Part shown: in pieces, positions 1-21,667 of the stretch | Layout: every line of letters starts with the position of its first letter | How positions within the stretch are numbered: position 1 is the stretch's first letter | Assembly: GCA_964512715.1 (NCBI GenBank) | Contig: CAZEJX010000001.1 | Span: 1 to 36,505, forward strand | Reading direction: 5' to 3' | Length of the DNA stretch: 36,505 nt | From: an uncultured Candidatus Saccharibacteria bacterium | GTDB lineage: Bacteria; Patescibacteriota; Minisyncoccia; UBA6257; 2-01-FULL-56-20 | Program-made: the position numbers and the translations under genes | The notes under the pieces: model-generated | Seen by the model: only the letters and a program-made list of their open reading frames with translations | Told to the model about the DNA's origin: nothing | The model's database searches: none

Positions 1-1078
1 CGGCCTTCATGCGACGCTGAATTTCCTTGAAAGAATCGAGCGAGATATTATCGCGCTTGATTGCCTTCAGGGTATCCATATCCATGGACTGCATCGAAAT
101 CGTCGCGCCCATGTTCAAACCGGAATCCGCGAAAATCTTCTGTACTTTATAGGAGCGCTCCGTAGCGTTTTTGGTATTCGAAACCGTGATCGCGGCGGGG
201 TAGCCGGTACGCGCTCTCATCTCGGCCCAATACTCGGCGATTTCCACATCTCGGGGCAGAATACCGAAGTTCGCATCGGTGAGAAAGATAAAACGTACGC
301 GGTGCGCGGCAAACCATTCCGCTTCCGCGTAGACATGCTCCAGCGGCCACGAGTTCACTTTGGTTGCCACGTAGGATCCCCAGTCGCAGAACGCGCATGA
401 GAACGGACAGCCGCGATTCGTTTCCCAGGTACCGATCCACTCGGTAGTCGGGTTTGCGGCGATGAGCGGTTCGAATATATCGTCGAGATAGGGCGAAGGA
501 AATTCTTCCAAATTCCGGGTACGTGACACGCGCTCGGTCTGGATAAAATTGCCCCACGCATCAATGAAGCTTACCGAAGGAATGTTCTTCCAATCCCCCG
601 TGAGCTCCTCGAGAAAAGTGGTGAATGGTTTTTCGCCTTCGCCGTGGCAGACAAGATCGATGAAGGGATACTGGCGCAGATACTCTTCTACGCGTTTCGC
701 GTCGTAATGCATCGCGGCATTACTTCCTTTGGCCACCGCCTCGCGTGCCATTTTGCGTTGAATCCGATCGGGCACGTGCGGACCACCGGCGATAATGATT
801 ACCTCCGGCTTCCGGGCTTTGAGCCGCTCCATGATCCGGAGTGAGAGCTCGTTATTCCACACATAGAGACTGAATCCCACCACATCCGCCGGCACGAGCT
901 TCTCGACTGCCGTCTCGATCGCTTCGCGCGAAAAGAGCGGCAGCATGAACTCGTACTCGTCCGGATCTTTGAGATTCTTGCGGGCGTAGGCCTCAAGGAG
1001 ACCAACGGAATAGGGCAAATAGCTGTGGCCGGAAAATCCGGCGTTAATCTGACAGAACCCCACGACAATTTTTCGCAT
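1..1078 (-). CDS. B12-binding-domain radical SAM protein (class B rSAM), paralog 1; C-terminal part runs off the left window edge
   Basis: Absent from the ORF track because there is no in-window stop. Manual minus-strand translation from ATG 1076..1078 stays open to position 1: MRKIVVGFCQINAGFSGHSYLPYSVG...GGPHVP...WETNRGCPFSCAFCDWGS...FLTDANFG...MQSMDMDTLKAIKR. The CxxxCxxC cluster is encoded at about 381..418. The protein aligns along its whole visible length with the 1267..3258 protein. Confidence 0.8.
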   Translation of the reverse strand, partial: MRKIVVGFCQINAGFSGHSYLPYSVGLLEAYARKNLKDPDEYEFMLPLFSREAIETAVEKLVPADVVGFSLYVWNNELSLRIMERLKARKPEVIIIAGGPHVPDRIQRKMAREAVAKGSNAAMHYDAKRVEEYLRQYPFIDLVCHGEGEKPFTTFLEELTGDWKNIPSVSFIDAWGNFIQTERVSRTRNLEEFPSPYLDDIFEPLIAANPTTEWIGTWETNRGCPFSCAFCDWGSYVATKVNSWPLEHVYAEAEWFAAHRVRFIFLTDANFGILPRDVEIAEYWAEMRARTGYPAAITVSNTKNATERSYKVQKIFADSGLNMGATISMQSMDMDTLKAIKRDNISLDSFKEIQRRMKA

Positions 1079-1121
1079 ACATATCCTCGCTTTCGTTTCG
1101 TTTTCAAATCTTCTGCCCTTG

Positions 1122-1150
1122 AATGTATCGTTCCCCTCTGCTCTTGTCAA
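1122..1150 (-). promoter_or_regulatory. Putative sigma70-type promoter of rSAM paralog 1 (TTGACA-17-TACATT on minus strand)
   Basis: The plus strand has tgtcaa at 1145..1150 and aatgta at 1122..1127 with a 17-nt spacer. The -35 hexamer overlaps the end of the 40-bp palindrome by 2 nt. Confidence 0.45.
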
Positions 1151-1188
1151 TATTATATACTATATTATATAATATAGTATATAATATT
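1149..1188. repeat. 40-bp perfect AT-only palindrome (aatattatatactatattat|ataatatagtatataatatt), copy 1
   Basis: The reverse complement of 1149..1168 equals 1169..1188 exactly. Positions 1148..1188 match 34830..34870 with a single mismatch. Confidence 0.95.
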
Positions 1189-1208
1189 TCACTTGCTCTG
1201 GAAATGAC

Positions 1209-1243
1209 GAAAAATAAAAGCGGCCAAGTTTAGCTTGGCCGCT
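1209..1243 (-). terminator. Rho-independent terminator after rSAM paralog 2
   Basis: Stem agcggccaag (1219..1228) pairs with cttggccgct (1234..1243) around a 5-nt loop. On the minus strand it is followed by ttttatttt. Confidence 0.8.
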
Positions 1244-1266
1244 TTCCTATGTTGTTCTATCCCTCC

Positions 1267-3258
1267 TTAGAAATGACCGGAGAGTTGTTCGAGCGAGGCA
1301 TTGCCGTAGAGATACGCGCCACGCTTGTTGCCGAACCAAACCACCTCGCGGCACCAGTCCTCGATTGAGTCCCAGCGTTCGCTCGTGCGGTCGATACTCA
1401 CCACAAACTCCCCTTCTTCCGGCAACGCTTTCTCGCCACGCATGACGCGCTTTCTGAAATCCAGCACGTTCCATGACGATTCGAGCTCGAGATCACGCTC
1501 TTCGAACGGCGCCTTGATGAGTGCGCGATTCAACCGGACTGCTTCATGGAGATATGCTCCGTAGCGCGCGTTACTCTCGCCGAATACTTCAAAGAGAAGT
1601 GTCTCTGCCTCGCGATAGAACGCATCCAGGCGTCCCGACGCCATGAGCTCGATAAACGCGAGCTCATCGGCCGGCCACCAGATGCCGAGCCAGCGCTCGG
1701 AGTGACAGTACTCTTCGCCGCCGGCTTGGATTTCCCGTGCCTTGGCTTCGAAAAACTGCAACGTATGCTGGAGCGTCTGAAAACGTCCGCTCAAGAGAGA
1801 TTCGTTCATGAATGCCTCGATCACGGCGCGATAGGTCGCGCCGGTAGACTCGTGGGTCACCATGAGCGGAATCTGCAAGAGCTTGTCGAAATGAAGAAAC
1901 GCGCTCATCCATGCAAAGACGCGGGTTTTCACCCAGTCCGCACGCGGCATCGAAGCAGTCGCGATGACGAGCTTCTGATACTCGGGCACATCGTCTGCGG
2001 ACTCTTCTCTGAATCCGTGAATGTTGATGATGCGGCTCTGCACGGTTTCCATACCGTACTTTGCCTGATATGTCGGATCGCCCATCTCCGCGTTCGGCAG
2101 AATGGCAAGGTTATTGAACTGAATGCGATTATGCTGACCGCCTTCAATCAACTCACTCACCCCGTTCGCGAACGAATCATAGGTTTCGCCGGGCAGACCC
2201 AGAATGAGATCGGTCATGGTCTCCACACCCGCCGCGTTGAAGCGGTTCTGAATCTCCTTGAACGCGGGAATTGAGATGTTGCTGCGCTTGATCGCGACGA
2301 GCGTTTCGGCATCAATCGACTGCATGGATACCACAACACCCTGATTCAGACCCGAATCCGAGAGAATCTTCTGTACTTCAAACGCGCGCTCGGTAAGCTT
2401 GGAACCTAGGCGACCGCTCTTCGTACTCTGCACGGAAAGATGCGCCGGAAATCCCTTGCGGGCTTTAACCTCCGCACAGTAACGCGCGAGTTCTTCGTCT
2501 CGCTCCATGATTCCGAAATTCGCGTCGGCAGTGAAGACATAGTGGATCTTATGATCCGCAAACCAATCTACTTCTTCACGCAGACGATCCATGCCGGCAC
2601 CGTAGACTTTTTGCGCCGTAGCGGAGCCCCAGTCACAAAACGTGCAGCTGAAGGGACAGCCCCGATTTGTTTCCCACATTGCAATCCAGCGATGCTCGGG
2701 GTGAGCCGCCATCAAGGGCTCGAAGATACCGGTGAGATACGGCGAGGGAACCCGATCCAGATCATTGATGCGTTTACCGCGCGGGTTTGTCACGATAGTT
2801 CCGTCACGACGAAAACTTGCCGCGGGAATCTCCGAGAAATCTCCGCTCGGCAGGGCTTCCAAAATCGCCGTGAATACTTCTTCGCCTTCGCCATGTACCG
2901 CAATGTCCACGAATTCATGCTCATGCAAAAATGCTTCCGCATGATCCGGCACTTGTGGGCCGCCGAATACGATAACCGTATACGGTGACATAGACTTCAA
3001 GGCACGGGCGATCGCGAGCGAGATCTGCTCATTCCAAACATAGAGCGAGAAGCCGACAAGGTCCGCGCCGCGAAGCTTTTTCGCCGCGCGCTCCACGTTT
3101 TCCCGACAGTAGATGGGGATGAGAAATTCAAATGCTTCCGGGTCTTTGAGGTTCGCGCGTGCGAATGATTCGAGCACGCCAACTGAGTACGGCAGGTAGT
3201 ACTGGCCCGAAAAGCCATTGTTTACCTGCACGAGGCCCACCACCTTTTTCTCCTTCAT
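1267..3258 (-). CDS. B12-binding-domain radical SAM protein (class B rSAM, long C-terminal helical region), paralog 2
   Basis: The ORF contains NRGCPFSCTFCDW (CxxxCxxC), an N-terminal Rossmann-like B12-domain pattern (VGFSLYVWN, VFGGPQVP) and GLPGET. The start was moved to ATG 3256..3258 (MKEKKVVGLVQ), which lies 8 nt after AGGAAG. The track's GTG at 3267 lies inside that SD. Confidence 0.85.
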   Translation of the reverse strand: MKEKKVVGLVQVNNGFSGQYYLPYSVGVLESFARANLKDPEAFEFLIPIYCRENVERAAKKLRGADLVGFSLYVWNEQISLAIARALKSMSPYTVIVFGGPQVPDHAEAFLHEHEFVDIAVHGEGEEVFTAILEALPSGDFSEIPAASFRRDGTIVTNPRGKRINDLDRVPSPYLTGIFEPLMAAHPEHRWIAMWETNRGCPFSCTFCDWGSATAQKVYGAGMDRLREEVDWFADHKIHYVFTADANFGIMERDEELARYCAEVKARKGFPAHLSVQSTKSGRLGSKLTERAFEVQKILSDSGLNQGVVVSMQSIDAETLVAIKRSNISIPAFKEIQNRFNAAGVETMTDLILGLPGETYDSFANGVSELIEGGQHNRIQFNNLAILPNAEMGDPTYQAKYGMETVQSRIINIHGFREESADDVPEYQKLVIATASMPRADWVKTRVFAWMSAFLHFDKLLQIPLMVTHESTGATYRAVIEAFMNESLLSGRFQTLQHTLQFFEAKAREIQAGGEEYCHSERWLGIWWPADELAFIELMASGRLDAFYREAETLLFEVFGESNARYGAYLHEAVRLNRALIKAPFEERDLELESSWNVLDFRKRVMRGEKALPEEGEFVVSIDRTSERWDSIEDWCREVVWFGNKRGAYLYGNASLEQLSGHF

Positions 3259-3340: not shown

Positions 3341-3371
3341 AGAAAACGCCGCCGAGCTAAGCTCGGCGGCG
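3341..3371 (-). terminator. Rho-independent terminator after SDR gene
   Basis: Stem cgccgccgagc pairs with gctcggcggcg around loop taa. On the minus strand it is followed by ttttct. Confidence 0.75.
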
Positions 3372-3377: not shown

Positions 3378-4190
3378 TTAGAAAATCGAATTCACTGCTC
3401 CCCCGTCCACGGTAATGCAGGTACCGGTCAGGAGGCGGGAGCGATCGGAAGCGAGAAACACAGCGAGGTTCGCGACATCTTCCGCAGTCACGATTTTTTT
3501 GAGAACCATCTTTGAAAGCACATTCTTCGTCATCATCTCTTCCGCTTTTTTGTGCGAAAGGTGTTCAGTTTGCGCTTTGTTCGCGACATCACGCTTCCAG
3601 GCTCCGGCTTTCACGGTGTGTGGAGCAATCGCGTTCACGCGGATTTCGTACTTTCCCCACTGGTTCGAGAGGTGCTTACTCAAGTGAATCATGGCAGCCT
3701 TCATCGCGCCGTAGTGCGGATTGAAATCTCCCGGGCGCTTGCCTGCCACGCTCGCCATATTAATGACGGAGGCGCAGTCAGATTCCCTGAGATGCGGCAA
3801 CGCCGCCTGGCAAAAATGCACCATACTCATGAGGTTTGCTTCGAAGACCTCGTACCATTCGTGTTCGGTAATATACTGAAAGAGCGTGTGCTGGCGGACA
3901 CCGCCGATGTTGTTGACGAGAATATCAATTGTCCCGAAATCAGATTTTACTGCCTCTACGAGTCTCATAACATCCTTGCCCGAAGTGGCATCTACTTGAT
4001 AGTCCTCGGCGCGCACCTCACGTTTATCAAGCATCTTGACTGTCGCGTCGAGGTTTTTGAGATCCCGTCCGCAAATCGCGATGTTTGCACCCTCGGCAGC
4101 CAGTGCCTCTGCGATTGCACGACCAATGCCATGGCCGGCACCGGTTACGAGAGCTACCCGTCCGGCAAGCTCACCTTTTTGTTTTTTCAC
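3378..4190 (-). CDS. Short-chain dehydrogenase/reductase (FabG-like classical SDR)
   Basis: It has the TGAGHGIG cofactor motif, NNIG, and YGAMK (YxxxK) after a catalytic Ser region. The start is set to GTG 4188..4190, 6 nt after GGAGG. The track's TTG start is upstream of that SD. Confidence 0.85.
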   Translation of the reverse strand: MKKQKGELAGRVALVTGAGHGIGRAIAEALAAEGANIAICGRDLKNLDATVKMLDKREVRAEDYQVDATSGKDVMRLVEAVKSDFGTIDILVNNIGGVRQHTLFQYITEHEWYEVFEANLMSMVHFCQAALPHLRESDCASVINMASVAGKRPGDFNPHYGAMKAAMIHLSKHLSNQWGKYEIRVNAIAPHTVKAGAWKRDVANKAQTEHLSHKKAEEMMTKNVLSKMVLKKIVTAEDVANLAVFLASDRSRLLTGTCITVDGGAVNSIF

Positions 4191-4221
4191 TTCACTCCTC
4201 CTCAATCAATTAACTGACAAT

Positions 4222-4270: not shown

Positions 4271-5209
4271 TTAGATGTTCGCGTAATTATTCCGTTTCAC
4301 GATCTTATAGCCTTTGATAAGCTCTCGAATCGCGGCTTCCAGTGATACCTGGGGTTTGAAGCCGGTTTTCTCTATTTTCTCGTTTGAGACAACGTAATTG
4401 CGCTTATCCGGATCCTTGCCGATCGCGGATTCCAGGAAAACAAATTCTGGCAGCTGTTTTTGAATCTCTTGGCAGAGCTCGAGCTTGCTCAAGTTTGCAT
4501 CAGAGAGACCTACGTTATAGGCGTTGTTCTTCATGGCGTCGAAATTCGTCATGGCGTGCATGAACGCGCGCACAACATCGCGGACATGAATGTAATTGCG
4601 TTTGAAATGGGCTTCGAAAAGGACTACGAAGCGATCGTTCACCGCCCGGTACACAAAATCATTTACTAAAAGATCCAGGCGCATGCGCGGGCTTATGCCG
4701 CAGACCGTGGCAAGCCGCAGCGTTATGGCGTCCCCTGCCGCCAAGAGCTTCTCTTCTGCCTCTACTTTCAATCTGCCATAGAGCGAAATGGGCTCGAGCG
4801 GGGTTTCTTCGGTGCAAAATGTAGTCTCCCCTTGACCGAGACCATAGCCGCTATTCGTATTCGGGAAAATGATTTTCTGCCCTGCTTCGCGAAGCTTCAG
4901 AATGGATTCCACGGCCTCGAGATTGGTCGTGCGCGCCGCGATGGGATCTTGATCGCAGAGCGGCGCACCCACGAGACACGCCAAGGGAATAATAAAATCT
5001 TTGCCGGGAATATGTTTTTTAAGCAGCTCATCGCTCCTCGCATCGCCGCGCACTACCGTAAGCGTATCGAAATTGCAGACGTCCAAAAGTGACGTTTGAC
5101 CGTACATAAAATTATCGATTACGGTGACCTCGTGCCCCGCGCGCAGGAGCTCCGGAACAAGGACTGAACCGATATAACCAGCTCCGCCGGTTACTAATAC
5201 TTTTGCCAT
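4271..5209 (-). CDS. NAD-dependent epimerase/dehydratase (extended SDR, nucleotide-sugar modifying)
   Basis: It starts MAKVLVTGGAGYIGS (the GxxGxxG motif), has YGRLK (YxxxK), and is about 310 aa, typical of extended SDRs. Confidence 0.85.
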   Translation of the reverse strand: MAKVLVTGGAGYIGSVLVPELLRAGHEVTVIDNFMYGQTSLLDVCNFDTLTVVRGDARSDELLKKHIPGKDFIIPLACLVGAPLCDQDPIAARTTNLEAVESILKLREAGQKIIFPNTNSGYGLGQGETTFCTEETPLEPISLYGRLKVEAEEKLLAAGDAITLRLATVCGISPRMRLDLLVNDFVYRAVNDRFVVLFEAHFKRNYIHVRDVVRAFMHAMTNFDAMKNNAYNVGLSDANLSKLELCQEIQKQLPEFVFLESAIGKDPDKRNYVVSNEKIEKTGFKPQVSLEAAIRELIKGYKIVKRNNYANI

Positions 5210-5277: not shown

Positions 5278-6189
5278 CTATTTGGGAAAGAACTTTTTGA
5301 GCGTCTCAGCGATTTTCCGGCCCGAAATGCCGACGTGATCGCGCAGATAGGCCTGGCTGCCAACGACCTCCGGCCAGTCATCCTGGATGCCGAACCGGAA
5401 GAAGCGCGCGATTCCTCTCGTTTCCGCAATCACTTCCGCGACTGCACTGCCCAAGCCGCCCACAATGCTGTGCTCCTCGAGCGTGCAGATGAGTCTGCGA
5501 TTCTTCGCAAGGTCACGGACAAACTCCCGGTCGAGAGGCTTTAGCGTATGTATGTTCACCACTTCGAGCGAGAGTCCTTGCTCATGAAGGATTTCTGCGG
5601 CGATCAAGGCCTCCTCAAGAATGGTGCCGGTCGCAAGGAGCGACATATCACTGCCACTTCGCACGATCATCGCTTTCCCGAATACCGGAGTCAGTGCATG
5701 CAGATTTTTCTCCCCACGCTTATTGAGACGCAGGTATGCCGGACCGCCCTCAGCCGTAACTTGATTGAAGAGCGCGACTGCCTCTTCTGGGCCGGAGGGC
5801 GAAACAATCTTCATGCGCGGCAGCGCGCGCATCATCGCAATGTCTTCGATCGCAAGATGGGTGATGCCACACGTGCCATAGGTAAAACCGGCTCCGCCAC
5901 CGATCACCACCACATTCGCATGGTGCGAACATACATCTACTTTGATTTGTTCGATGCAACGCAGAGTAATGAAGGGAATGATAGAGTAGACGAAGACTTG
6001 CTTACCCGAGAGCGCCGCACCGGCGGCAAGACCGATGATGTTTTGCTCCGCCATGCCGGCGTTTTGATAGCGCAGCCCCAGCTCCCGAAATTCCTTCTCG
6101 CGCACGTGCTGGAAGTCCCCGGTCACAAAAAAGATGTTTTCATCCTTTCGCGCGGCTTCATAGAGCGCTTCAATGACTGCATTACGCAT
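5278..6189 (-). CDS. Transketolase, C-terminal (pyrimidine-binding plus C-terminal domain) subunit
   Basis: It shows MAEQN, FxxR and related patterns typical of the TK/DXS pyrimidine-binding domain. The start is set to ATG 6187..6189 (MRNAVIEAL), 6 nt after GGAGG. It overlaps the stop of the upstream subunit by 8 nt. Confidence 0.85.
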   Translation of the reverse strand: MRNAVIEALYEAARKDENIFFVTGDFQHVREKEFRELGLRYQNAGMAEQNIIGLAAGAALSGKQVFVYSIIPFITLRCIEQIKVDVCSHHANVVVIGGGAGFTYGTCGITHLAIEDIAMMRALPRMKIVSPSGPEEAVALFNQVTAEGGPAYLRLNKRGEKNLHALTPVFGKAMIVRSGSDMSLLATGTILEEALIAAEILHEQGLSLEVVNIHTLKPLDREFVRDLAKNRRLICTLEEHSIVGGLGSAVAEVIAETRGIARFFRFGIQDDWPEVVGSQAYLRDHVGISGRKIAETLKKFFPK

Positions 6190-6985
6190 CTTCCACCTCC
6201 CGCGTTGCGAGCACATATTGCTCCGGAGTCATGACGCCGTTATGCCAATCCTCGCCGTGGTCCTCCATAAAGGAGACGCCTTTGCCTTTCCGCGTACATG
6301 CGAAGATTACGTGCGGAGGACGGCTGGATGGGAGTCTTAGATAATCCGTCAGCTGATGAAAGTGGTGACCATTGATGCGCGAGGTAGCCCAGCCGAAAGC
6401 TTTGAACTTGTCTTCAAGTGGTTCCACCTCTACGACGTGGCGCACTTGCGTCCAGGTCTGAAATCCGTTTACATCCACGATGAGGGTGAGGTTCTTCAAA
6501 TTGCGTGAAGCAGCGAACATCGCCGCTTCCCACACTGAACCTTCCTGGAGCTCGCCATCACCCATGAGCACAAATACCCGCGAGGGCAGATTATCCGCTG
6601 CCGCGGCGAGCGCCATACCCACACCGAGTGAGAGTCCGTGACCGCCGGAGCCGCCATTCGTTTCCACGCCCGGCATGTGGCGCTCGATGTGATCAGCAAT
6701 GCGACTGCCTTCTCTTGCGAAATCAGACAATGCTTCCACCGGAAAAAATCCCCGTTCCGCGAGCACCGCGTAAAGCGCAGCGGCAGCGTGGCCCTTACTC
6801 AGAATGAACCGGTCCCGCAGCCGATCAGTGGGGTAGTCGGGATCGATATTCATCACCTCGAAATAGAGTGCCACAAGAATTTCAATTGCCGACAACGAGC
6901 AACCGATGTGAGAATCTTTGGCTTCATAAGCCATCTGGAGCACGTGCTTGCGTGCTTTTTTGGCAACCATTGCGAGATCTTTCAC
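6182..6985 (-). CDS. Transketolase, N-terminal (thiamine-diphosphate-binding) subunit
   Basis: It has SKGHAAAALYAVL, GSGGHGLSLGVGMA and GDGELQEGSVWEA (the ThDP/Mg motif region). The GTG start is preceded by AAGGAG at 8 nt. Confidence 0.85.
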   Translation of the reverse strand: MKDLAMVAKKARKHVLQMAYEAKDSHIGCSLSAIEILVALYFEVMNIDPDYPTDRLRDRFILSKGHAAAALYAVLAERGFFPVEALSDFAREGSRIADHIERHMPGVETNGGSGGHGLSLGVGMALAAAADNLPSRVFVLMGDGELQEGSVWEAAMFAASRNLKNLTLIVDVNGFQTWTQVRHVVEVEPLEDKFKAFGWATSRINGHHFHQLTDYLRLPSSRPPHVIFACTRKGKGVSFMEDHGEDWHNGVMTPEQYVLATREVEDA

Positions 6986-7111
6986 AATGTTTTCTCCTTT
7001 TTCAAATGTATTTGCTGTCCGTGAATATACCCGCTTCGCGCAAGTTTGACAATAGAGCTATTTCGATGCAGACTACATCCAGCAAAATTTGAAAAGGAAG
7101 GAAGTAACACG

Positions 7112-8068
7112 ATGCATTATCGCCTGCTCGGTACTACCGGCATTCGCGTTTCTGAAATTGGATTTGGTACCTGGGGCATCGGTGGACTGACCGAAGGCGC
7201 AACCTCCTACGGTGAGACTGATGACCAGGTTTCACTCGCAGCACTTCACCGCGCATTGGATCTTGGTATCACTTTTTTCGACACCTCGAGCACGTATGGC
7301 TACGGCCATGCGGAAGAGCTTTTAGGAAAAGCTTTCGGCGCTCGGCGAGACAAGGTAGTTATCGGCACCAAAGCAGGTTGCGTTCGCCACGGCGGACCGT
7401 ACGACGTTTCCCCTCACTATCTTCGTAGCTCGCTTGAAGAAAGTCTGCGCTGGCTCCGGATGGAGTATGTGGATCTTTATCAGATTCACAGCGTGCCCAT
7501 GGAAATTGCGCGCAGATACGCTGTCACCGAGACTCTCGAGAGTCTCAAGCGAGAAGGCAAAATTCGAGCGTTCGGATACTCGACCAAGAATCCGGAAGAT
7601 GCCATCGAGGCAATGGATGTATTCAAAGCCGAGGTGGTGCAGGTAAACTTCAATCTCATGGATCACCGCGCAATTCACGCGGGAGTGCTCCAGCGAGCGA
7701 ATGAACTCAAGGTTGGCGTTATCGCCCGTACGCCTTTTTCATTCGGTTTTTTGACGGGAAAGATTGATTCGCTCGATTTCAACGAACGAGATCATCGTTC
7801 CGCCTGGCCAAAGGAACAGTTGGAACGCTGGCAAGCCGCGGCGGACCGCTTCGCATTCCTCAATTCCAAAGGAATGTATACCAAAGCCCAACTTGCGCTG
7901 AAGTTTTGCGTGAGTTTTCCGGAGGTATCCACGGTTGTACCCGGCATGATGCGTCTCGAAGAAGTCGAAGAAAATGCGCGAACCGCGGATCTGCCGCCAC
8001 TTACCGGCAAACACCTTGCGGCGGCGATTGAGCTCAGGCGTACGTCTACGTTTTTTATCGGAAAGTGA
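7112..8068 (+). CDS. Aldo/keto reductase family oxidoreductase
   Basis: It starts MHYRLLGTTGIRVSEIGFGTWG and has FDTSSTYGYGHAEELLG and other AKR signature regions. ATG 7112 lies 7 nt after GGAAGGAAG. The track's TTG at 7046 is a -35-like TTGACA, not a start. Confidence 0.85.
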   Translation: MHYRLLGTTGIRVSEIGFGTWGIGGLTEGATSYGETDDQVSLAALHRALDLGITFFDTSSTYGYGHAEELLGKAFGARRDKVVIGTKAGCVRHGGPYDVSPHYLRSSLEESLRWLRMEYVDLYQIHSVPMEIARRYAVTETLESLKREGKIRAFGYSTKNPEDAIEAMDVFKAEVVQVNFNLMDHRAIHAGVLQRANELKVGVIARTPFSFGFLTGKIDSLDFNERDHRSAWPKEQLERWQAAADRFAFLNSKGMYTKAQLALKFCVSFPEVSTVVPGMMRLEEVEENARTADLPPLTGKHLAAAIELRRTSTFFIGK

Positions 8069-8075: not shown

Positions 8076-8582
8076 ATGATCATTTCTTTGAAGACTGTTG
8101 CAGGACTGAGAACACTCTCCTCTGCTAAAAGAATTGTCTTCGTTTCCGGTTCTTTTGATCTCTTGCACGCGCGGCACATCTGTTTTCTGGAAGACTGCAA
8201 GAAACTGGGCGACCTCTTGGTTGTCGCGGTAGGCCCGGATGCGGAAATCAGAAAGAACAAAGGCGAGGGACGACCGATCCTGAACGAGCATATTCGCCTC
8301 AAGATGGTGGATTCACTGAAGCCCGTAGATTACGCGTTTCTTTCGAATCCTTCCGCTCCGGGCGAAGGACTCTTGTCTCCGCTTCAGGAGATTTTCTACC
8401 TCTTCCGGCCGGATATCTGGGCCATAAACTACGATGGCGAGGATCTGGAAGGCCGGCATAAAGTGGCGCGCGAATTCGGAATCCGTTTCGTCGTGCTTCG
8501 CTCGGAGCGAGACAAGCCGCCGGAATACGAAGGTGTCTCTACTTCCTCTATCATCGAAAAAATACGCAAACTTCCCGCGTAG
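8076..8582 (+). CDS. Cytidylyltransferase-family nucleotidyltransferase (RfaE domain II / TagD-like)
   Basis: VFVSGSFDLLHARHICFL carries the (H/T)xGH-type motif. The LVVAVGPDAEIRKNKGEGRPI pattern matches heptose-1-P adenylyltransferase and glycerol-3-P cytidylyltransferase families, and the C terminus has STSSIIEKI. The start is set to ATG 8076. Confidence 0.75.
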   Translation: MIISLKTVAGLRTLSSAKRIVFVSGSFDLLHARHICFLEDCKKLGDLLVVAVGPDAEIRKNKGEGRPILNEHIRLKMVDSLKPVDYAFLSNPSAPGEGLLSPLQEIFYLFRPDIWAINYDGEDLEGRHKVAREFGIRFVVLRSERDKPPEYEGVSTSSIIEKIRKLPA

Positions 8583-8596: not shown

Positions 8597-8630
8597 CCGC
8601 GCGACTTTACCGTCGCGCGGTTTTTATTTT
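8597..8630 (+). terminator. Rho-independent terminator; its stem overlaps the last codons of the convergent HD gene
   Basis: Stem ccgcgcgac (8597..8605) pairs with gtcgcgcgg (8612..8620), followed by tttttatttt. Confidence 0.75.
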
Positions 8631-9440
8631 CTCGCGGATAGAGCGATCAATATATTCAGGAAGATCTTCCGGCTCGACGAGTACGCCCAGAGCCTGGAGC
8701 ATGCTCGCAAACCGTTTTTCAATTTCGTGATTTATAGCCGCCGCCGCCTCGAAACGCGTCATCCCGTCGAAGAAAGGATGGCCCGCGTTCAATGTGATCC
8801 CCTCCTCATTCATCGTGCTGTAATCGGGGTTTGCAGCGTTCGCGATATTTCTCCGGTCGATATCATTGATTTTTTTGCCATCTATGATTTCAGCCGGTTC
8901 TGCCCAGCTGCTCCCCCGGGTGTAGTTATCAATATAATGAGCAATGAGATGCGCACAATCTTCTTCGGTGAGCTCGTGTTTATCCAAAATCTCTTTTACA
9001 AAAAACGTATCTTCCGGATCACCGGTTACATGCCCCGCGAAGGAAATCACCATTTCGGACACCCCGGCATTCCGAAGCATCGCTTCATTTTCTTTTTCGA
9101 TCGCGAGAACCGCTTGGCGCCCGCTCCCACCCTCCGCAATTTCGGATTTGGTGCGCTTGATTTCTTCCCTTTTATTAAAATCGTGGACCGCTGCAGCTCG
9201 TCCAAGGACTTCGCGGATTTCATGTGAAAGACCTAAGAGCTCAGCCAGCGTTTCGGCACGGGCCGCCTCAATGAGGCAATGCTCCGTGACATTACTCCAA
9301 TCCCTGCCACTCTCATCTTTTTCCCAAAGCTTACCGAGTGTTTCGTGAAGCTGAAGCTCATGCTCATGGGTATGAGCAAGTGCAAGAAAATAATCCTGCT
9401 CCTCTTTTGTCCGACCCTGAAATACAGGCGGCAAATTCAT
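8607..9440 (-). CDS. HD-domain phosphohydrolase-like protein
   Basis: It has an H...HD pattern (EHCLIEAA ... AAAVHDFNK). It is the last gene of the long minus-strand operon, and its ATG lies 1 nt after the upstream stop. Confidence 0.55.
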   Translation of the reverse strand: MNLPPVFQGRTKEEQDYFLALAHTHEHELQLHETLGKLWEKDESGRDWSNVTEHCLIEAARAETLAELLGLSHEIREVLGRAAAVHDFNKREEIKRTKSEIAEGGSGRQAVLAIEKENEAMLRNAGVSEMVISFAGHVTGDPEDTFFVKEILDKHELTEEDCAHLIAHYIDNYTRGSSWAEPAEIIDGKKINDIDRRNIANAANPDYSTMNEEGITLNAGHPFFDGMTRFEAAAAINHEIEKRFASMLQALGVLVEPEDLPEYIDRSIREKIKTARR

Positions 9441-9441
9441 C

Positions 9442-9957
9442 CTAATCTACATACTTACCCGCCTCATCCCGCTGAGAGAGCATCGGATTCTTGATCGGCC
9501 ACCAGATATTGTACTTCGGATCGTCGTAACGAATCGAAAACTGGCTCTGTGGGTCGTAATATTCTGATTGCTTATAGCAAAATACGATTTTATCGGAGAG
9601 GGCGAGGTGACCGTTTCCGAATTTCGGTGGTACGAGCACTTGCCAGCGATTCGCATCGGTTAGTACAAACGACTCCCATTGCTTGTACTGCGGGGAAGTC
9701 TCATCGCAGTTCACTACCACGAAATAGAAACGACCGTATCCGCACGAAATGAGCTTATAGGTTTTTTGATCGCCATGAATGCCGCGCAGCGTTCCTTGCG
9801 AAGACGAAGAGAGGTCGTCACAGACAAAATCCATCGCGATGCCGTGTTCGGCATACAATTTTTTATTAAAGGTCTCCACGTAGGCGCCCCGAAAATCCTC
9901 GTGAACATCGGGTTTTACGAGAAGCACACCATCAAGCTTTGTCTTTTGGATTTCCAT
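9442..9957 (-). CDS. dTDP-4-dehydrorhamnose 3,5-epimerase-like cupin (RmlC family)
   Basis: KLDGVLLVKPDVHEDFRGAYVETF, GTLRGIHGDQKTYKLISC and PPKFGNGHLAL correspond to the RmlC His/Asp dyad and cupin motifs. Confidence 0.85.
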   Translation of the reverse strand: MEIQKTKLDGVLLVKPDVHEDFRGAYVETFNKKLYAEHGIAMDFVCDDLSSSSQGTLRGIHGDQKTYKLISCGYGRFYFVVVNCDETSPQYKQWESFVLTDANRWQVLVPPKFGNGHLALSDKIVFCYKQSEYYDPQSQFSIRYDDPKYNIWWPIKNPMLSQRDEAGKYVD

Positions 9958-9966: not shown

Positions 9967-10908
9967 CTATACCTTTGGGGACCAAATAACAATCGAATAC
10001 TCCGTAAGCAAACTGCCTCCGAGATAGGTACGAAATGCCTTTTCTACAGTAAGCGTCCCCTGTTTTTCCCGTTCGCGCAAACTACTCATAAAGTTCGACA
10101 GGTAATTACGACGCTTAAAATATTCGATGACCAGATAATCCAAGAGATTCTCCGGATCCATGAGTTCCCAGACCGGCTCAACGTGGAAGCACCGTTCGGG
10201 TTTATTTTTCAAAAGATAATCGATGAAGGCGCCGTGTTCGCTCCCCACCTGTTCCAGAGCACCTACGGTATAGACCACGCTCCCCGGTTCCAGGGCGAAC
10301 GATTCATCGGGATGAAAGAAATCAAACTTTCTCCCAAAGGTGTCCTTTGCCAATCCTTCCTTTACCATTTCCGCGATAATGTTCTGCGATGCCTCCGCCC
10401 AATCAAGACCGTAGATTTTCGCGGTGGGGTTGAATTCGCGCAAGCGCAGGAGGTGATGGCCGGTGCCGCAGCCGAATTCATACACGGCCGGCGCTTTTGC
10501 GGCATATTTTTCAAAAAGCCAGCTGAGCATTATCGAAAGAACCTTATAATCAAAGCCTTTCTCAGTTGGCTTCACATACTCCCGGCGCCAGCGTGCCCAG
10601 CGGGTGAGTTCCCGATCTACCGAAAAATACGCGGGTAGTAAGCCTTCCTTTCCCTCTTTCTTCAGGGCCTCGAGGTTAGATGACCAACCCTTCTCCCATT
10701 TCTCGATACGATGCGCGCCAGACTTATCCATCTGCACGGGGTCGAGGAGAATCTGAATAGCGCTTCTCAAGCAATAATCCCGCTCGGCTGACGTGAGTTC
10801 CGTATAGCTTACTGCAAGATCTCTCACAATCCCCTCGACTCGTGGACTCAACGACTCGCCTACTACGCCCGCAATATCTTCCGGAGTTAGCGTTTTTGGT
10901 TCTAACAT
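9967..10908 (-). CDS. SAM-dependent methyltransferase (class I) with N-terminal extension
   Basis: It has motif I YEFGCGTGHHL, and a LDW acidic residue after beta-2. Confidence 0.65.
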   Translation of the reverse strand: MLEPKTLTPEDIAGVVGESLSPRVEGIVRDLAVSYTELTSAERDYCLRSAIQILLDPVQMDKSGAHRIEKWEKGWSSNLEALKKEGKEGLLPAYFSVDRELTRWARWRREYVKPTEKGFDYKVLSIMLSWLFEKYAAKAPAVYEFGCGTGHHLLRLREFNPTAKIYGLDWAEASQNIIAEMVKEGLAKDTFGRKFDFFHPDESFALEPGSVVYTVGALEQVGSEHGAFIDYLLKNKPERCFHVEPVWELMDPENLLDYLVIEYFKRRNYLSNFMSSLREREKQGTLTVEKAFRTYLGGSLLTEYSIVIWSPKV

Positions 10909-10941: not shown

Positions 10942-12075
10942 TCAATTGGCCGTAAAGTTTCCCGAGGCGTCTAAGAAATAATTTCGGCTGAAGTAATCGC
11001 GCTGATCCTTGGACTGAACGCCTCCTTTTCGTAGTCTCCTCAAGAGGAATTCCAAACCTCGCCGCCCCAAGCGCCCCACCGCACGCACGCTACAAACAAC
11101 ACGTTCGATCCAAGAAAACTCTTTGAAAAAACGCCGCGATTCAGACTTGCCTTGTTGTATGTCAGCAAAAAACTTGCGCGGACCGGTCCGGATGAAACGG
11201 ATAAAGAGCGAGGTGAGCGCTTCGGTTCCCAGAAAGAGCTTCATGCCACGATAGAAACTTGGCCACTTTGCTTTATACATGAAAGAGAACGTGGTGAGAT
11301 ACTGATAATAATGCGTAAGGACTTTTGTGAGCGATTCCTGCCCCAGGTCAAAATGGATAGTCTGGCCGCCCATCGTTTTTAAATGGCAGAGCGCGCTGCT
11401 AAATATGAAACGCTCGTGCCGACTCAGAATCTCGAGGAACATGACGGCGTCGATCCCGAACCCTTGTGTGAAAAGCGATCTGAGCTCCGGAGTAACGGCC
11501 TCGGATGTCGGATAATGGGTAAGGAAATAATTAAATGAGGCTACGGCATCTTCCTTGCGAATGAGCGCCAGCGCGCTTATATAAAGATGGGTCGGACGAT
11601 ACATCTCTTTCGCAAACCACGAGGCCGGGTAAGCCTTTGGACGGGAAAACTCTCCGAATACCTCGTTTTCTAAAATAAAGTGATCCGGCTTATCTTCGAG
11701 AAGACTTACCAGGCGCGGAATGACGCCGGCGGCATCCGGAAATTCTTCAAACGTTTCTATTCCCTTTTCGATATAATCCCTGGCAATCCAATCGTCCGCG
11801 CCGATCATCATTACAAATTTTCCGTGAGCAAGTTCGAACGATTTCCTGAGCCGCTCTGGGAATGTGCCTTCCTCGACACGCACATAGGTTATGCGCGGAT
11901 CCCGAGCCGCATATTGCTTCACGATTTCCGCGCTGCCATCCGTGCTCGCGCCATCGACTACCACCAATTCCACGTTGGCGTAGGTCTGCTGGAGGACGCT
12001 TTCGAGAACCCGGTAGATATAGCGTTCCGCCCGGAAAAAAGTTGTGCAGACGCTCACTAAAGGTTTTTCCGGCAT
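10942..12075 (-). CDS. Glycosyltransferase family 2
   Basis: It has VSVCTTFFRAERYI, VVVDGASTDGS and IGADDW (a DxD-like motif) in an N-terminal GT-A fold pattern. Confidence 0.8.
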   Translation of the reverse strand: MPEKPLVSVCTTFFRAERYIYRVLESVLQQTYANVELVVVDGASTDGSAEIVKQYAARDPRITYVRVEEGTFPERLRKSFELAHGKFVMMIGADDWIARDYIEKGIETFEEFPDAAGVIPRLVSLLEDKPDHFILENEVFGEFSRPKAYPASWFAKEMYRPTHLYISALALIRKEDAVASFNYFLTHYPTSEAVTPELRSLFTQGFGIDAVMFLEILSRHERFIFSSALCHLKTMGGQTIHFDLGQESLTKVLTHYYQYLTTFSFMYKAKWPSFYRGMKLFLGTEALTSLFIRFIRTGPRKFFADIQQGKSESRRFFKEFSWIERVVCSVRAVGRLGRRGLEFLLRRLRKGGVQSKDQRDYFSRNYFLDASGNFTAN

Positions 12076-12080: not shown

Positions 12081-12657
12081 TTATCCCGCCGATTGCAGCT
12101 CTTGTTCTACCGCGTCGGTTAATGCATGGAGAAGCGTGTTGTGCACTTCCTGAATGCGTCCGGTGCTCGTTGAAGGCACGATGAATTCGATGTCAGCCAT
12201 ACCTTTGGTCTTGCCGCCGTCTTTACCGAGAAACACTACCGTGGCTACACCGCGTGCTTTGGCTATCTGAAGTGCTTCCAAAATATTCTTTGAATTGCCG
12301 CTTGTTGAGATCCCCAAGAAAACATCACCTTTACGCGCATGGGCTTCTACCTGCCGGGCAAAAACAAGATCGAAACTATAATCATTGCTCCAAGCAGTAA
12401 GAATGGATGTATCCACGCTCAACGCAATCGCCGAGTACGGCGGGCGCTCCAGTTTCTCATATTTACCGACAAACTCCGCGGCGAGGTGTTGAGCTTGCGC
12501 GGCAGATCCACCATTGCCCGCGATCAAAAGCCTTCCCCCGTTTTTGAAACACTCCACAAGAACGACCACGGCGCGGTCGAACGCTCCCAGAAATAGCTGG
12601 TTCGAGAGCAGTTCCTCTTGCAACGCGATTGATTCTTCAAAATGTTTTTTGAGCATA
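12081..12657 (-). CDS. gmhA: Sedoheptulose-7-phosphate isomerase (SIS domain, GmhA)
   Basis: GGRLLIAGNGGSAAQAQHLAAEF, GISTSGNSKNI, LGKDGGK and RIQEVH align motif for motif with E. coli GmhA. The start is set to ATG 12655..12657 (MLKKHF). The track start is a TTG upstream. Confidence 0.85.
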
Positions 12658-12694
12658 GCTAATACCCAAACAGTAGGGCATTCCCGCTCAATGG

Positions 12695-13423
12695 TCAACT
12701 CTTTTTCCGGGCGTGAATCAAGAGATTTTGAGTAAAGATCCCTTGCGAAGATCCGGTCTCAATAAGCAAATAGCACCTGAGCTTCAATTCAATAACGCGC
12801 CACAGAAGCGCGCGCAACCCTGATACGATGCCGTGCGCTACCGGTCGCTGTGGCCTCACGTCTATTTCATGGAAGCCCGTAACGGAAAGAACCTGATGAG
12901 CGGAGGAACTCGTAAGAGCGTTTTCATGAGTAAAATCTCCGTGCCTTAAACGTCCCCAGAGAAGATTTTCCGCATTCACGGTTTGGATGATGATGCTTCC
13001 ATCCGGTTTCAAGGCGCGCGCAAGAAGATCGAGCACGTCGAGAATCTCGTCTTTTCTGAAGTGCTCAAAAATGTCGCGCGCAAAAATGCAATCGAATTGA
13101 CCTTCGTGCTTCGGAAGGTACGCGGTGATATCTTCGCGTACGAGATTCTTCACGCCCATCGCCTCCCCCGCGGCAATTTGCTCGGCACTGATATCCACTC
13201 CTCGGGCTGACCGAAGACCTTGGGACTGCAACCAGAGCACGAAGCTCCCCTCGCCGCAGCCGATATCTAAGACAGCCGCGTCTTTCTTCTTCGGGAGCCA
13301 TTCTCCAAAATACGCCCTCCACACCGGAAACTGGCGTTCGGCTGAAGCACGGGAGCGTTCGCCATAGAGATGCGCCGTATGTTCCGACGCATAGCGGCTA
13401 TACAAGCGGTCGCGATAATCCAT
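12695..13423 (-). CDS. Class I SAM-dependent methyltransferase
   Basis: It has VLDIGCGEGSF (motif I), GVDIS, and FDCIFARDIFEH. Confidence 0.8.
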   Translation of the reverse strand: MDYRDRLYSRYASEHTAHLYGERSRASAERQFPVWRAYFGEWLPKKKDAAVLDIGCGEGSFVLWLQSQGLRSARGVDISAEQIAAGEAMGVKNLVREDITAYLPKHEGQFDCIFARDIFEHFRKDEILDVLDLLARALKPDGSIIIQTVNAENLLWGRLRHGDFTHENALTSSSAHQVLSVTGFHEIDVRPQRPVAHGIVSGLRALLWRVIELKLRCYLLIETGSSQGIFTQNLLIHARKKS

Positions 13424-14576: not shown

Positions 14577-14578
14577 AG

Positions 14579-15610: not shown

Positions 15611-15618
15611 GAGTGGAG

Positions 15619-21621: not shown

Positions 21622-21667
21622 TTAGTTAGATAAATTGACATCGGCTTTGCCGAGAAAGGGAAAAGCA

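What the first reader, a model, noticed from the sequence alone, without database searches (positions are those of the whole stretch)
1..3258. Tandem, diverged paralogous B12-binding radical SAM enzymes heading a glycan locus in a probable reduced-genome bacterium
Two adjacent minus-strand genes (1..1078 partial, 1267..3258) encode class B radical SAM proteins. Each has a CxxxCxxC cluster plus an N-terminal cobalamin-domain pattern, and the complete paralog is about 660 aa with a long C-terminal helical region. They align throughout but are clearly diverged, and paralog 1 has an extra ~30-aa insert after GGPHVPD. Each has its own promoter and terminator.

They sit beside sugar-modifying SDRs, an RmlC-like epimerase, two conventional methyltransferases and three glycosyltransferases. 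Class B rSAM enzymes acting on sugars (GenK, GenD1 and Fom3-type chemistry) perform C-methylation or other reactions at unactivated carbons. Such enzymes in a surface-glycan locus would imply unusual C-methylated or rearranged sugars.

It would also imply cobalamin dependence in an organism that, if it is CPR, likely cannot make B12.
Basis: partly seen in the sequence, partly recalled or inferred. Interest (0 to 1): 0.65.

Follow-up and report, generated by a model that had tools for sequence, protein, structure and literature searches.

The report
Paired TokK-like B12 radical SAM methylases
Two neighbouring genes in a Patescibacteria (CPR) surface-sugar locus encode vitamin-B12-dependent radical SAM enzymes; their closest studied relatives are the carbapenem methylase TokK and the cystobactamid methylase CysS, and they belong to a large, unstudied family that nearly always sits beside sugar-nucleotide branching genes, so they probably add methyl groups to an unusual branched sugar.

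Summary
Window 1267-3258(-) encodes a complete 663-aa protein (rSAM-A). Window 2-1078(-) encodes the first 359 aa of a paralogue (rSAM-B, 49% identical, with a 24-aa insert after GGPHVPD). Both score above Pfam thresholds for B12-binding and Radical_SAM and carry CxxxCxxC.

The closest characterised relatives are TokK (E 7e-94) and CysS, not GenK, Fom3 or BchE. The AlphaFold model matches TokK over all three domains (TM 0.82-0.86). TokK's lower-axial Trp76 and active-site Trp215 are invariant, but its substrate-binding Arg280 is Ser or Thr.

The tight family has no named or characterised member and occurs in at least 583 species genomes of many phyla. In 62 loci its commonest neighbours are:
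- an aldo-keto reductase (43 within 300 bp);
- a two-subunit ThDP enzyme (E1 alpha/beta or split transketolase);
- NAD epimerases/dehydratases;
- an HddA-like kinase and an HddC-like nucleotidyltransferase.

The host is a CPR bacterium, judged from IleRS relatives.

Best reading: cobalamin-dependent C-methylation of a nucleotide-activated, probably heptose-derived, C2-branched sugar. The paralogues would act at different steps. The substrate and B12 supply are untested. This is a new member of a known enzyme kind, of moderate interest.

The parts
2..1078 (-). rSAM-B: the N-terminal 359 aa of the second TokK-like cobalamin radical SAM paralogue. The gene runs off the window edge.
   Evidence: Pfam B12-binding and Radical_SAM both above cut-off. 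It is 49% identical to rSAM-A. It keeps 67 of 67 family-invariant positions. A 24-aa insert after GGPHVPD is shared with the 679-aa orthologue in L001.
1122..1150 (-). Sigma-70-like promoter match upstream of rSAM-B.
   Evidence: TTGACA-17-TACATT, 10 of 12 matches. This is a consensus match only.
1216..1246 (-). Intrinsic-terminator-like hairpin after rSAM-A.
   Evidence: 13-bp stem followed by ATTTTT.
1267..3258 (-). rSAM-A: the complete 663-aa TokK-like cobalamin-dependent radical SAM enzyme. An alternative GTG start lies at 3267.
   Evidence: Pfam. TokK E 7e-94 and CysS E 6e-61. AlphaFold model with pLDDT 87. Foldseek TM 0.82-0.86 to TokK over about 645 columns.
3347..3371 (-). Terminator-like hairpin between the SDR gene and rSAM-A.
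   Evidence: 11-bp stem with 10 G-C pairs and a TTTTCT tail.
3378..4205 (-). Short-chain dehydrogenase/reductase (275 aa).
   Evidence: adh_short_C2, 191 bits. It holds the same position in L001, L003 and L087.
4271..5209 (-). NAD-dependent sugar epimerase/dehydratase-family protein (312 aa).
   Evidence: Pfam Epimerase, 102 bits. Best NCBIfam matches are GalE and dTDP-glucose dehydratase, both below cut-off.
5278..6985 (-). Split transketolase-like ThDP enzyme. The C-terminal subunit is 5278-6216 and the N-terminal subunit is 6182-6985.
   Evidence: Transket_pyr plus Transketolase_C, and Transketolase_N. It takes the place that E1 alpha/beta pairs hold in most other loci.
7046..8068 (+). Aldo-keto reductase.
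   Evidence: Aldo_ket_red, 190 bits. A homologue lies within 300 bp of the rSAM in 43 of 62 genome loci.
8082..8582 (+). RfaE-domain-II-like nucleotidyltransferase (166 aa).
   Evidence: TIGR02199, 85 bits, below cut-off. CTP_transf_like is present in the syntenic loci.
8607..9440 (-). Conserved 277-aa protein of unknown function.
   Evidence: No Pfam, NCBIfam or PDB match. It holds the same position in L001-L003.
9442..9957 (-). RmlC-like sugar 3,5-epimerase.
   Evidence: dTDP_sugar_isom, 163 bits. TIGR01221, 136.6 bits against a cut-off of 155.75.
9967..10908 (-). 313-aa methyltransferase-like protein.
   Evidence: Only weak Pfam methyltransferase matches, all below cut-off. Homologues occur in 18 of 62 loci.
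10942..12075 (-). GT2 glycosyltransferase.
   Evidence: Glycos_transf_2, 87 bits.
12081..12698 (-). GmhA-like sedoheptulose-7-phosphate isomerase (SIS domain).
   Evidence: TIGR00441, 198 bits against a cut-off of 209; NF010546, 199 bits.
12695..13423 (-). Class I SAM methyltransferase.
   Evidence: Methyltransf_23/11/25.
13431..15655 (-). Two GT4 glycosyltransferases (13431-14576 and 14579-15655).
   Evidence: Glycos_transf_1, 123 and 114 bits.
15619..17646 (-). Wzy_C / O-antigen-ligase-like membrane protein (675 aa).
   Evidence: PF04932, 63 bits.

Best explanation
rSAM-A and rSAM-B are two diverged copies of a TokK-type, three-domain enzyme. The domains are an N-terminal cobalamin Rossmann domain, a [4Fe-4S]/SAM barrel and a TokK-like C-terminal domain.

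By analogy with TokK and CysS (an inference), one SAM methylates cob(I)alamin. A second SAM is cleaved at the cluster to a 5'-deoxyadenosyl radical, which removes an H atom from an unactivated sp3 carbon. The resulting carbon radical then takes the methyl group from methylcobalamin.

The substrate is most likely a nucleotide-activated sugar made by the surrounding cassette. That cassette makes a heptose nucleotide (GmhA-, HddA-, GmhB- and HddC-like genes). NAD-dependent dehydratase, epimerase and reductase enzymes then process it. A two-subunit ThDP enzyme adds a C2 branch, and an aldo-keto reductase or SDR reduces it.

The methyl group or groups would go on the branch or on the deoxygenated side chain. 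The two paralogues would do different steps or act at different positions. The finished sugar would be built into a surface glycan by the GT2, GT4 and Wzy_C genes.

Shown: domain content, fold, cofactor motifs, family membership and conserved gene neighbourhood. Inferred: methyl transfer, identity of the substrate, and division of labour between the paralogues.
For: - Domains and motifs: Pfam domains are above cut-off and CxxxCxxC is present in both proteins.
- Sequence relatives: TokK E 7e-94 over residues 18-476, and CysS E 6e-61.
- Fold: the AlphaFold model (pLDDT 87, pTM 0.89) matches TokK at TM 0.82-0.86 over about 645 columns, including the C-terminal domain. It matches CysS at TM 0.71-0.77. 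The next best, TsrM and OxsB, reach only about 0.5.
- Cofactor residues: TokK Trp76 (below the cobalt) and Trp215 are conserved in all 96 family sequences that have a residue at those columns (2 have gaps) (roles from bioRxiv 10.1101/2021.07.10.451909 and PMC12846815).
- Substrate pocket: TokK's carboxylate-binding Arg280 is Ser in 94 of 98 family sequences and Thr in the B type. TokK Tyr410 is His. This points to a different substrate.
- Neighbourhood in 62 genome loci from many phyla: AKR in 46-54 loci, and within 300 bp in 43 (median gap 4 bp). A ThDP alpha/beta pair in 43-48. NAD epimerase/dehydratase in 51-57. GHMP kinase in 40-41. An NTP-transferase (often fused to a HAD domain) in 39-41. 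DegT in 30 and RmlC in 23-26.
- Heptose route: the kinase, transferase, phosphatase and SIS proteins match HddA, HddC, GmhB and GmhA best.
- Precedent for branching: E1-alpha/beta-like Pau11/Pau12 attach a C-4' acetyl branch, and the AKR Pau7 reduces it to hydroxyethyl (PMC4753412).
- Fusions: P0323 joins a homologue to a GT2 domain. P0255 and P0266 are fused double cobalamin radical SAM proteins.
- Paralogue differences: the B type has His for Gln at TokK Tyr20 and Thr for Ser at TokK Arg280, plus the 24-aa insert. The A type has a 6-aa GRLGSK insert five residues after the Arg280-equivalent position. Each difference is conserved in the orthologues.
Against: - No member of this family has been characterised, and no paper in the library links it to a glycan.
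- All three characterised relatives (TokK, ThnK, CysS) act on pantetheine-linked substrates, not on sugars.
- The NCBIfam HddA, HddC, GmhB and GmhA scores are below the equivalog cut-offs.
- In this window the AKR is 3.8 kb away and on the other strand; the SDR is the adjacent gene.
- The window has a split transketolase rather than the E1 pair seen in most loci.
- The C-terminal half of rSAM-B is not in the window.
- Cobalamin binding is inferred from sequence only.
Confidence: 0.6

Rival explanations
1. The enzymes act on the sugar but do cobalamin-dependent radical chemistry other than methyl transfer. Examples would be ring contraction or rearrangement as in OxsB, or a C-C cyclisation as in BchE, giving a rearranged or carbocyclic sugar.
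For: Class B radical SAM enzymes include non-methylases. OxsB appears among the structural matches, and BchE and the (non-cobalamin) AprD4 diol-dehydratase appear among the weak NCBIfam matches. The substrate pocket differs from TokK.
Against: OxsB and TsrM match at only TM about 0.5 and 12-16% identity, against TM 0.82-0.86 and 29-30% identity for TokK. The TokK/CysS-specific Trp residues are invariant. BchE scores 47.6 bits against a cut-off of 481.
Confidence: 0.12
2. The enzymes are methylases, but the substrate is not a sugar nucleotide. It would be a pantetheine- or carrier-linked small acid, a lipid, or a non-sugar substituent that is later attached to the glycan.
For: TokK, ThnK and CysS all use pantetheinylated substrates, and the TokK C-terminal domain that binds the pantetheine tail is structurally retained (bioRxiv 10.1101/2021.07.10.451909; PMC12846815). 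ThDP enzymes and AKRs also act on free keto acids (PMC9306805).
Against: No carrier protein, CoA ligase or acyltransferase appears in the nine Pfam-annotated loci or among the ten frequent neighbour clusters that were Pfam-annotated (seven identifiable, three without a Pfam match). The conserved partners are nucleotide-sugar enzymes. One homologue is fused to a GT2 domain.
Confidence: 0.15
3. Only one paralogue is catalytic. The other is a degenerate, non-catalytic partner or a decaying duplicate.
For: Tandem pairs are rare: 2 of 62 genome loci. Only 359 aa of rSAM-B can be seen. In the Brennerbacteria locus L087, the second copy has altered motifs (WETDRNCPFSCTFCGWG and HGAGE).
Against: rSAM-B keeps 67 of 67 family-invariant positions, including all three cluster cysteines and the cobalamin-domain motifs. 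Its 679-aa orthologue in L001 is full length and was part of the alignment that defined those invariant columns. Both paralogues are kept across syntenic relatives whose copies are 70-77% identical. Fused double enzymes exist.
Confidence: 0.05

Closest known systems
TokK / ThnK (carbapenem C6 sequential methylases; PDB 7kdx, 7kdy)
   Same: Same three-domain architecture: TM 0.82-0.86 over about 645 columns, 29-30% identity, sequence E 7e-94. Shared features are CxxxCxxC, GGPHVPD, HGEGE, the lower-axial Trp76 and the active-site Trp215.
   Different: The substrate-binding Arg280 is Ser or Thr, Tyr410 is His, and Glu19/Tyr20 are Gly/Gln (His in the B type). The gene context is nucleotide-sugar and glycan genes, not a beta-lactam cluster. 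The C-terminal domain is detected only structurally, not by phmmer beyond residue 476.
CysS (cystobactamid iterative methylase; PDB 9n1b-d)
   Same: Sequence E 6e-61 and TM 0.71-0.77. It has the same lower-axial Trp (Trp75 in CysS) (PMC12846815).
   Different: Only 22-23% identity. CysS methylates a methoxy group on a pantetheinylated aminobenzoate.
NCBIfam NF033712, the KedN5 family of methylcobalamin-dependent radical SAM C-methyltransferases
   Same: It is the best-scoring NCBIfam model for both paralogues: 260.9 and 187.3 bits.
   Different: The scores are far below the 700-bit cut-off. For rSAM-A, only profile positions 63-401 of 624 align.
GenK, GenD1 and Fom3
   Same: Same enzyme class. 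From my own knowledge, they are precedents for cobalamin-dependent radical SAM methylation of sugar carbons or nucleotide-linked substrates.
   Different: They did not appear among the PDB or NCBIfam matches, and no model or sequence for them was available here. The relationship was therefore not tested.
Pau11/Pau12 plus Pau7, and AviB1/AviB2 (ThDP C2 branching of sugars followed by AKR reduction)
   Same: The conserved neighbours of the family are an E1-alpha/beta-like (or split transketolase) pair and an AKR. This is the same enzyme pairing as in paulomycose formation (PMC4753412).
   Different: Those clusters are not reported to contain a cobalamin radical SAM enzyme. Homology of the AKR and E1 proteins here to Pau7 and Pau11/12 themselves was not tested.

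Membership tests
Class B (cobalamin-dependent) radical SAM enzymes | CxxxCxxC [4Fe-4S] motif within a Radical_SAM core | tested here: met
   C201/C205/C208 in rSAM-A and the same motif in rSAM-B. PF04055 scores 46.4 and 37.6 bits against a cut-off of 29.5.
Class B (cobalamin-dependent) radical SAM enzymes | N-terminal Rossmann-type cobalamin-binding domain | tested here: met
   PF02310 scores 42.2 and 41.1 bits against a cut-off of 32.1. The modelled domain superposes on TokK.
Class B (cobalamin-dependent) radical SAM enzymes | The protein actually binds and uses cobalamin | not testable with these tools
   Needs purified protein with UV-vis, EPR or mass spectrometry.
TokK/ThnK/CysS-type three-domain methylases | Full-length fold, including the TokK-type C-terminal domain | tested here: met
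   Foldseek TM 0.82-0.86 over 640-686 aligned columns against 7kdx and 7kdy. This rests on a predicted model with pLDDT 87.
TokK/ThnK/CysS-type three-domain methylases | Trp on the lower axial face of cobalamin (TokK Trp76, CysS Trp75) and the active-site Trp215 | tested here: met
   W75 and W210 in rSAM-A. Trp is present in all 96 family sequences that have a residue at those columns (2 of the 98 have gaps there), rSAM-B included.
TokK/ThnK/CysS-type three-domain methylases | Substrate-anchoring residues for a pantetheinylated carboxylate substrate (TokK Arg280) | tested here: not met
   Ser in 94 of 98 family sequences, and Thr in rSAM-B. The family works like TokK but on a different substrate.
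TokK/ThnK/CysS-type three-domain methylases | Sequential (iterative) methylation | not testable with these tools
   Needs an enzyme assay.
NCBIfam NF033712 (KedN5 family) | Whole-protein score at or above the curated cut-off of 700 bits | tested here: not met
   260.9 bits (rSAM-A) and 187.3 bits (rSAM-B fragment).
BchE, HpnJ, HpnR and ladderane-lipid cobalamin radical SAM families (non-sugar subfamilies named in the refutation test) | Score at or above each family's curated cut-off | tested here: not met
   BchE 47.6 against 481.35; HpnJ 73.7 against 577.6; HpnR 34.1 against 650; TIGR04072 42.6 against 360.
GDP-D-glycero-alpha-D-manno-heptose pathway (GmhA, HddA, GmhB, HddC) as the source of the substrate | All four enzymes are present and are equivalogs | tested here: inconclusive
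   GmhA-like protein in the window: 198 bits against a cut-off of 209.45. In the syntenic locus L001, the HddA-like protein scores 148 against 600, the HddC-like protein 135 against 300, and the GmhB-like protein 133 against 178. Each is the best hit but below cut-off. The last three genes lie outside the window.

The most novel reading that the evidence does not exclude
The family is a so far unrecognised branch of TokK-type iterative methylases that works on nucleotide sugars. It would extend a ThDP-installed C2 branch, or the side chain of a deoxy-heptose, by one or more carbons. This would give alkyl-branched higher sugars not yet described in surface glycans of hundreds of species from many phyla. 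In CPR bacteria the enzyme has duplicated so that two specialised copies build a longer or doubly methylated branch, making the cell-surface glycan of a reduced-genome symbiont depend on cobalamin taken from its host or community.
Probability: 0.3. Interest if true: 0.7.

Novelty: new member of a known kind. Interest (0 to 1): 0.45.

Why it matters
Cobalamin-dependent radical SAM methylases are hard to study, and only a few have known substrates. This family is very conserved (about 55% identity across phyla) and widespread (at least 583 species genomes). It occurs in cultured Reyranella soli NBRC 108950 and Enhydrobacter aerosaccus ATCC 27094. It is locked to a recognisable sugar-nucleotide cassette.

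That gives a concrete, testable entry point to two things: a possible new sugar modification, and a sugar-nucleotide substrate for the TokK-type scaffold. For CPR biology it would tie envelope glycan synthesis to an external vitamin B12 supply.

Tried and rejected
- Product identity. I considered that the cassette makes erwiniose or caryophyllose (heptose plus a radical methyl group giving an 8-deoxy-octose chain). I rejected this. The published route builds those sugars from CDP-3,6-dideoxy-4-keto-glucose and long alpha-keto acids with YerE-like enzymes, with no heptose and no radical SAM step (PMC9306805).
- Window's own contig. The look-up of rSAM-A's own contig found nothing on record, so the missing half of rSAM-B and the genes beyond it were read from the syntenic locus L001 instead.
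- Literature. Searches for heptose with cobalamin radical SAM, KedN5, O-antigen, polysaccharide, and Patescibacteria with cobalamin gave nothing relevant.
- RNA elements. The Rfam scan found no cobalamin riboswitch or any other RNA family in the window.
- Unknown neighbours. PDB sequence searches of the 277-aa unknown protein and the 313-aa methyltransferase-like protein gave no significant match.
- Family boundary. The representative search showed no sharp edge: scores fall smoothly from 782 to about 325 bits. The 'family' is therefore defined here by 50% or more full-length identity and by context.
- Tree. The neighbour-joining tree covers only the N-terminal 334 columns and has no support values. 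It shows the A and B types in one CPR-type clade, but the timing of the duplication is not firm.

Full report
**1. The observation**

The minus strand carries an ORF at 1267-3267 with an ATG at 3258, giving a 663-aa protein called rSAM-A here. A second reading frame starts at the ATG at 1078 and runs off the left edge of the window. It gives the first 359 aa of rSAM-B.

Both proteins pass Pfam gathering scores for B12-binding (42.2 and 41.1 bits, cut-off 32.1) and Radical_SAM (46.4 and 37.6 bits, cut-off 29.5). Both contain NRGCPFSC(T/A)FCDWGS, which holds the CxxxCxxC motif. They are 49% identical (E 1e-126).

**2. What the proteins are**

NCBIfam's best model for both is the KedN5 family of methylcobalamin-dependent radical SAM C-methyltransferases. 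The scores (260.9 and 187.3 bits) are far below the 700-bit cut-off. BchE, HpnJ, HpnR, PhpK and the ladderane lipid family score only 34-74 bits against cut-offs of 360-650.

Among solved structures, the hits are TokK (E 7e-94, residues 18-476) and CysS (E 6e-61). An AlphaFold model built from a 27-sequence alignment has pLDDT 87 and pTM 0.89. It superposes on TokK over about 645 columns at TM 0.82-0.86 and 29-30% identity, including the C-terminal domain that the TokK authors describe as distinct to TokK. CysS follows at TM 0.71-0.77. TsrM and OxsB reach only about 0.5.

The TokK and CysS papers give the Trp below the cobalt (TokK Trp76, CysS Trp75) and Trp215 as shared marks of this group (bioRxiv 10.1101/2021.07.10.451909; PMC12846815). 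I rebuilt TokK residues 19-472 from the printed alignment and checked the numbering. Both Trp residues are conserved in all 96 family sequences that have a residue at those columns, rSAM-A and rSAM-B included. GGPxVPD and HGEGE are also invariant. The cobalamin region is therefore not degenerate.

The residue that anchors TokK's substrate carboxylate, Arg280, is Ser in 94 of 98 family sequences and Thr in the B type. TokK Tyr410 is His. The scaffold and cofactor site are TokK-like, but the substrate pocket is not.

**3. The family**

The protein search gave more than 7,900 hits at E <= 1e-10. The top 120 are all 646-691 aa and 54-77% identical over the full length. Their names are only generic, such as 'radical SAM protein' or 'YgiQ family'.

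A scan of one genome per species found at least 583 genomes with a relative. The best 80 (51-57% identical) come from:
- Alpha- and Betaproteobacteria, including cultured Reyranella soli NBRC 108950 and Enhydrobacter aerosaccus ATCC 27094;
- Elusimicrobia, Omnitrophota and Patescibacteria;
- Planctomycetes, Cyanobacteria and Nitrospirae;
- Verrucomicrobia and Acidobacteria.

In the 50%-identity library, 1,730 clusters score E <= 1e-30. Scores fall smoothly from 782 bits to the TokK level of about 325 bits, so the wider TokK-like group is large and mostly unstudied. No paper in the library deals with this family.

**4. The neighbourhood**

In the window, the rSAM genes follow these genes on the minus strand unless marked:
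- an SDR;
- an NAD epimerase/dehydratase-family protein;
- a split transketolase;
- a divergent aldo-keto reductase and an RfaE-domain-II-like nucleotidyltransferase (both on the plus strand);
- a conserved protein of unknown function;
- an RmlC-like epimerase and a methyltransferase-like protein;
- a GT2 glycosyltransferase;
- a GmhA-like isomerase;
- a class I methyltransferase;
- two GT4 glycosyltransferases and a Wzy_C protein.

Syntenic metagenome contigs, whose rSAM-A is 77% (L001, L002) or 70% (L003) identical, show that the locus goes on beyond the window edge. In L001 the order is full-length rSAM-B (679 aa), an HddA-like GHMP kinase, an HddC-like nucleotidyltransferase, a Methyltransf_24 protein, a GmhB-like phosphatase, and then more glycosyltransferase, dehydratase and aminotransferase genes. 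The rSAM pair is therefore inside the locus, not at its head.

Distant loci from other phyla keep the same partners. I counted partners in 62 genome loci of at least 14 kb in two ways: by phmmer with window and locus proteins, and by de novo clustering with Pfam naming.

| Partner | Loci (of 62) |
|---|---|
| NAD epimerase/dehydratase | 51-57 |
| Aldo-keto reductase | 46-54 (43 within 300 bp; median gap 4 bp) |
| ThDP enzyme beta subunit (E1 beta or transketolase C) | 43-48 |
| ThDP enzyme alpha subunit | 41-45 |
| GHMP kinase | 40-41 |
| NTP-transferase, often fused to a HAD phosphatase | 39-41 |
| GMD-like 4,6-dehydratase | 40-43 |
| DegT aminotransferase or dehydratase | 30 |
| RmlC-like epimerase | 23-26 |

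No carrier protein or CoA ligase appears among the frequent partners that could be annotated. Of the ten frequent clusters sent to Pfam, seven gave an identifiable family and three gave no match.

**5. Mechanism proposed**

The kinase, phosphatase, nucleotidyltransferase and isomerase match the GDP-D-glycero-alpha-D-manno-heptose enzymes best, although below the equivalog cut-offs. The pairing of an E1-alpha/beta-like enzyme with an AKR has a worked precedent. In paulomycin biosynthesis, Pau11/Pau12 (AviB1/AviB2 homologues) attach a C-4' acetyl branch to the sugar, and the AKR Pau7 reduces it to hydroxyethyl (PMC4753412).

The simplest reading has four steps, all inferred:
1. The cassette makes a nucleotide-activated, heptose-derived keto sugar.
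2. It adds a C2 branch.
3. It reduces that branch.
4. The TokK-like enzyme puts one or more methyl groups on an unactivated carbon of the branch or of the side chain, by the methylcobalamin and 5'-deoxyadenosyl radical route shown for TokK and CysS.

Three natural fusions fit this reading. One homologue carries a C-terminal GT2 domain (P0323). Two proteins are fused double cobalamin radical SAM enzymes (P0255, P0266).

**6. The two paralogues**

Tandem pairs are rare, at 2 of 62 genome loci. They recur in the CPR-type loci: the window, L001-L005 and the Brennerbacteria locus L087. In a neighbour-joining tree of the shared N-terminal 334 columns, the A type, the B type and the extra copies of L003 and L087 form one clade apart from the other 84 sequences. 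The A-B distance (0.44) is about as large as the distance to other phyla (0.40). This points to an old duplication within this lineage, but the tree has no support values.

Each type has its own conserved marks. The A type has a 6-aa GRLGSK insert five residues after the Arg280-equivalent position. The B type has the 24-aa insert in the cobalamin domain, His for Gln at TokK Tyr20, and Thr for Ser at TokK Arg280. rSAM-B keeps 67 of 67 family-invariant positions. Two active enzymes with different specificity is the best reading. A dead copy is unlikely.

**7. The host**

A search with the window's IleRS gave relatives of 53-66% identity. Every one that carries a name is from Patescibacteria: Doudnabacteria, Liptonbacteria, Jorgensenbacteria, Pacebacteria or Minisyncoccia. 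The closest syntenic named locus is from Candidatus Brennerbacteria. The CPR assignment is supported.

Whether this organism can make or import cobalamin cannot be judged from 36.5 kb. No cobalamin riboswitch or transporter is in the window.

**8. Rivals**

Three alternatives remain possible and are scored in the report:
- non-methylating cobalamin radical chemistry;
- a substrate that is not a sugar nucleotide;
- one inactive paralogue.

I also tested my own idea that the product is erwiniose or caryophyllose. I dropped it because a published route explains those sugars without heptose or a radical SAM step (PMC9306805).

**9. Verdict**

It is a new, uncharacterised member of a known enzyme kind. 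The chemistry class is not surprising, but the family is large, tightly conserved and experimentally reachable. Interest is moderate.

Noticed in passing
window 29178-32669 (-): The 1163-aa IleRS has a histidine-phosphatase domain (Pfam His_Phos_1, 122.6 bits, aa 497-651) inserted inside the catalytic domain, before KMSKS at residue 775. The insert has RHAEAEQN and SHGD motifs. The same domain combination is present in more than 100 protein clusters, and every named one is from Patescibacteria. A few close relatives (P0134, P0196, P0208, P0228) lack it.
   Followed up: partly
homologues P0243, P0247, P0249, P0256, P0281 (not in the window): Family members of about 1000-1090 aa carry an intein (Intein_splicing, plus LAGLIDADG_3 in four of the five; P0247 has PT-HINT instead) inserted inside the CxxxCxxC motif. 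P0243 reads ...NRGCPFS|CVAGDTY...VRVAN|CTFCDWGS, so the +1 residue is the second cluster cysteine.
   Followed up: partly
homologues P0255, P0266 and P0323 (not in the window): P0255 (1283 aa) and P0266 (1271 aa) each match rSAM-A in two stretches and have two Radical_SAM stretches (two B12-binding stretches in P0266, one reported in P0255), so they look like fused double cobalamin radical SAM proteins. P0323 (876 aa) has a C-terminal GT2 domain, a weak match at 26.8 bits against a cut-off of 23.3.
   Followed up: partly
window 1150-1200: The gap between rSAM-A and rSAM-B contains an A+T-only, near-palindromic run (TATATTATATAATATAGTATATAATATT). Several overlapping promoter-like matches on both strands fall in it.
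   Followed up: no
rSAM-A residues 654-663 (window 1267-1299) and all family members: The family ends in a nearly invariant ...AGH[F/Y/W] C-terminal tail. This is the only low-confidence stretch of the model (pLDDT below 50). It may fold into the active site when substrate binds.
   Followed up: no
L087 1362-3376 and 7167-8878; L034 3724-5755 and 6677-8736: Some loci carry two ThDP-enzyme pairs beside the rSAM: two split transketolases in the Brennerbacteria locus L087, and two E1 alpha/beta pairs in Reyranella soli (L034). In many genome loci (cluster found in 41 of 62; representative from a Reyranella MAG) the nucleotidyltransferase is fused to a HAD phosphatase.
   Followed up: no
window 8607-9440(-), 19511-19909(-), 21635-22255(+), 22798-23355(-), 27403-28101(+), 36126-36500(-): These ORFs of 124-277 aa have no Pfam match. 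The 277-aa one (8607-9440) is conserved in the same position in the syntenic loci L001-L003, and it has no NCBIfam or PDB match either.
   Followed up: partly
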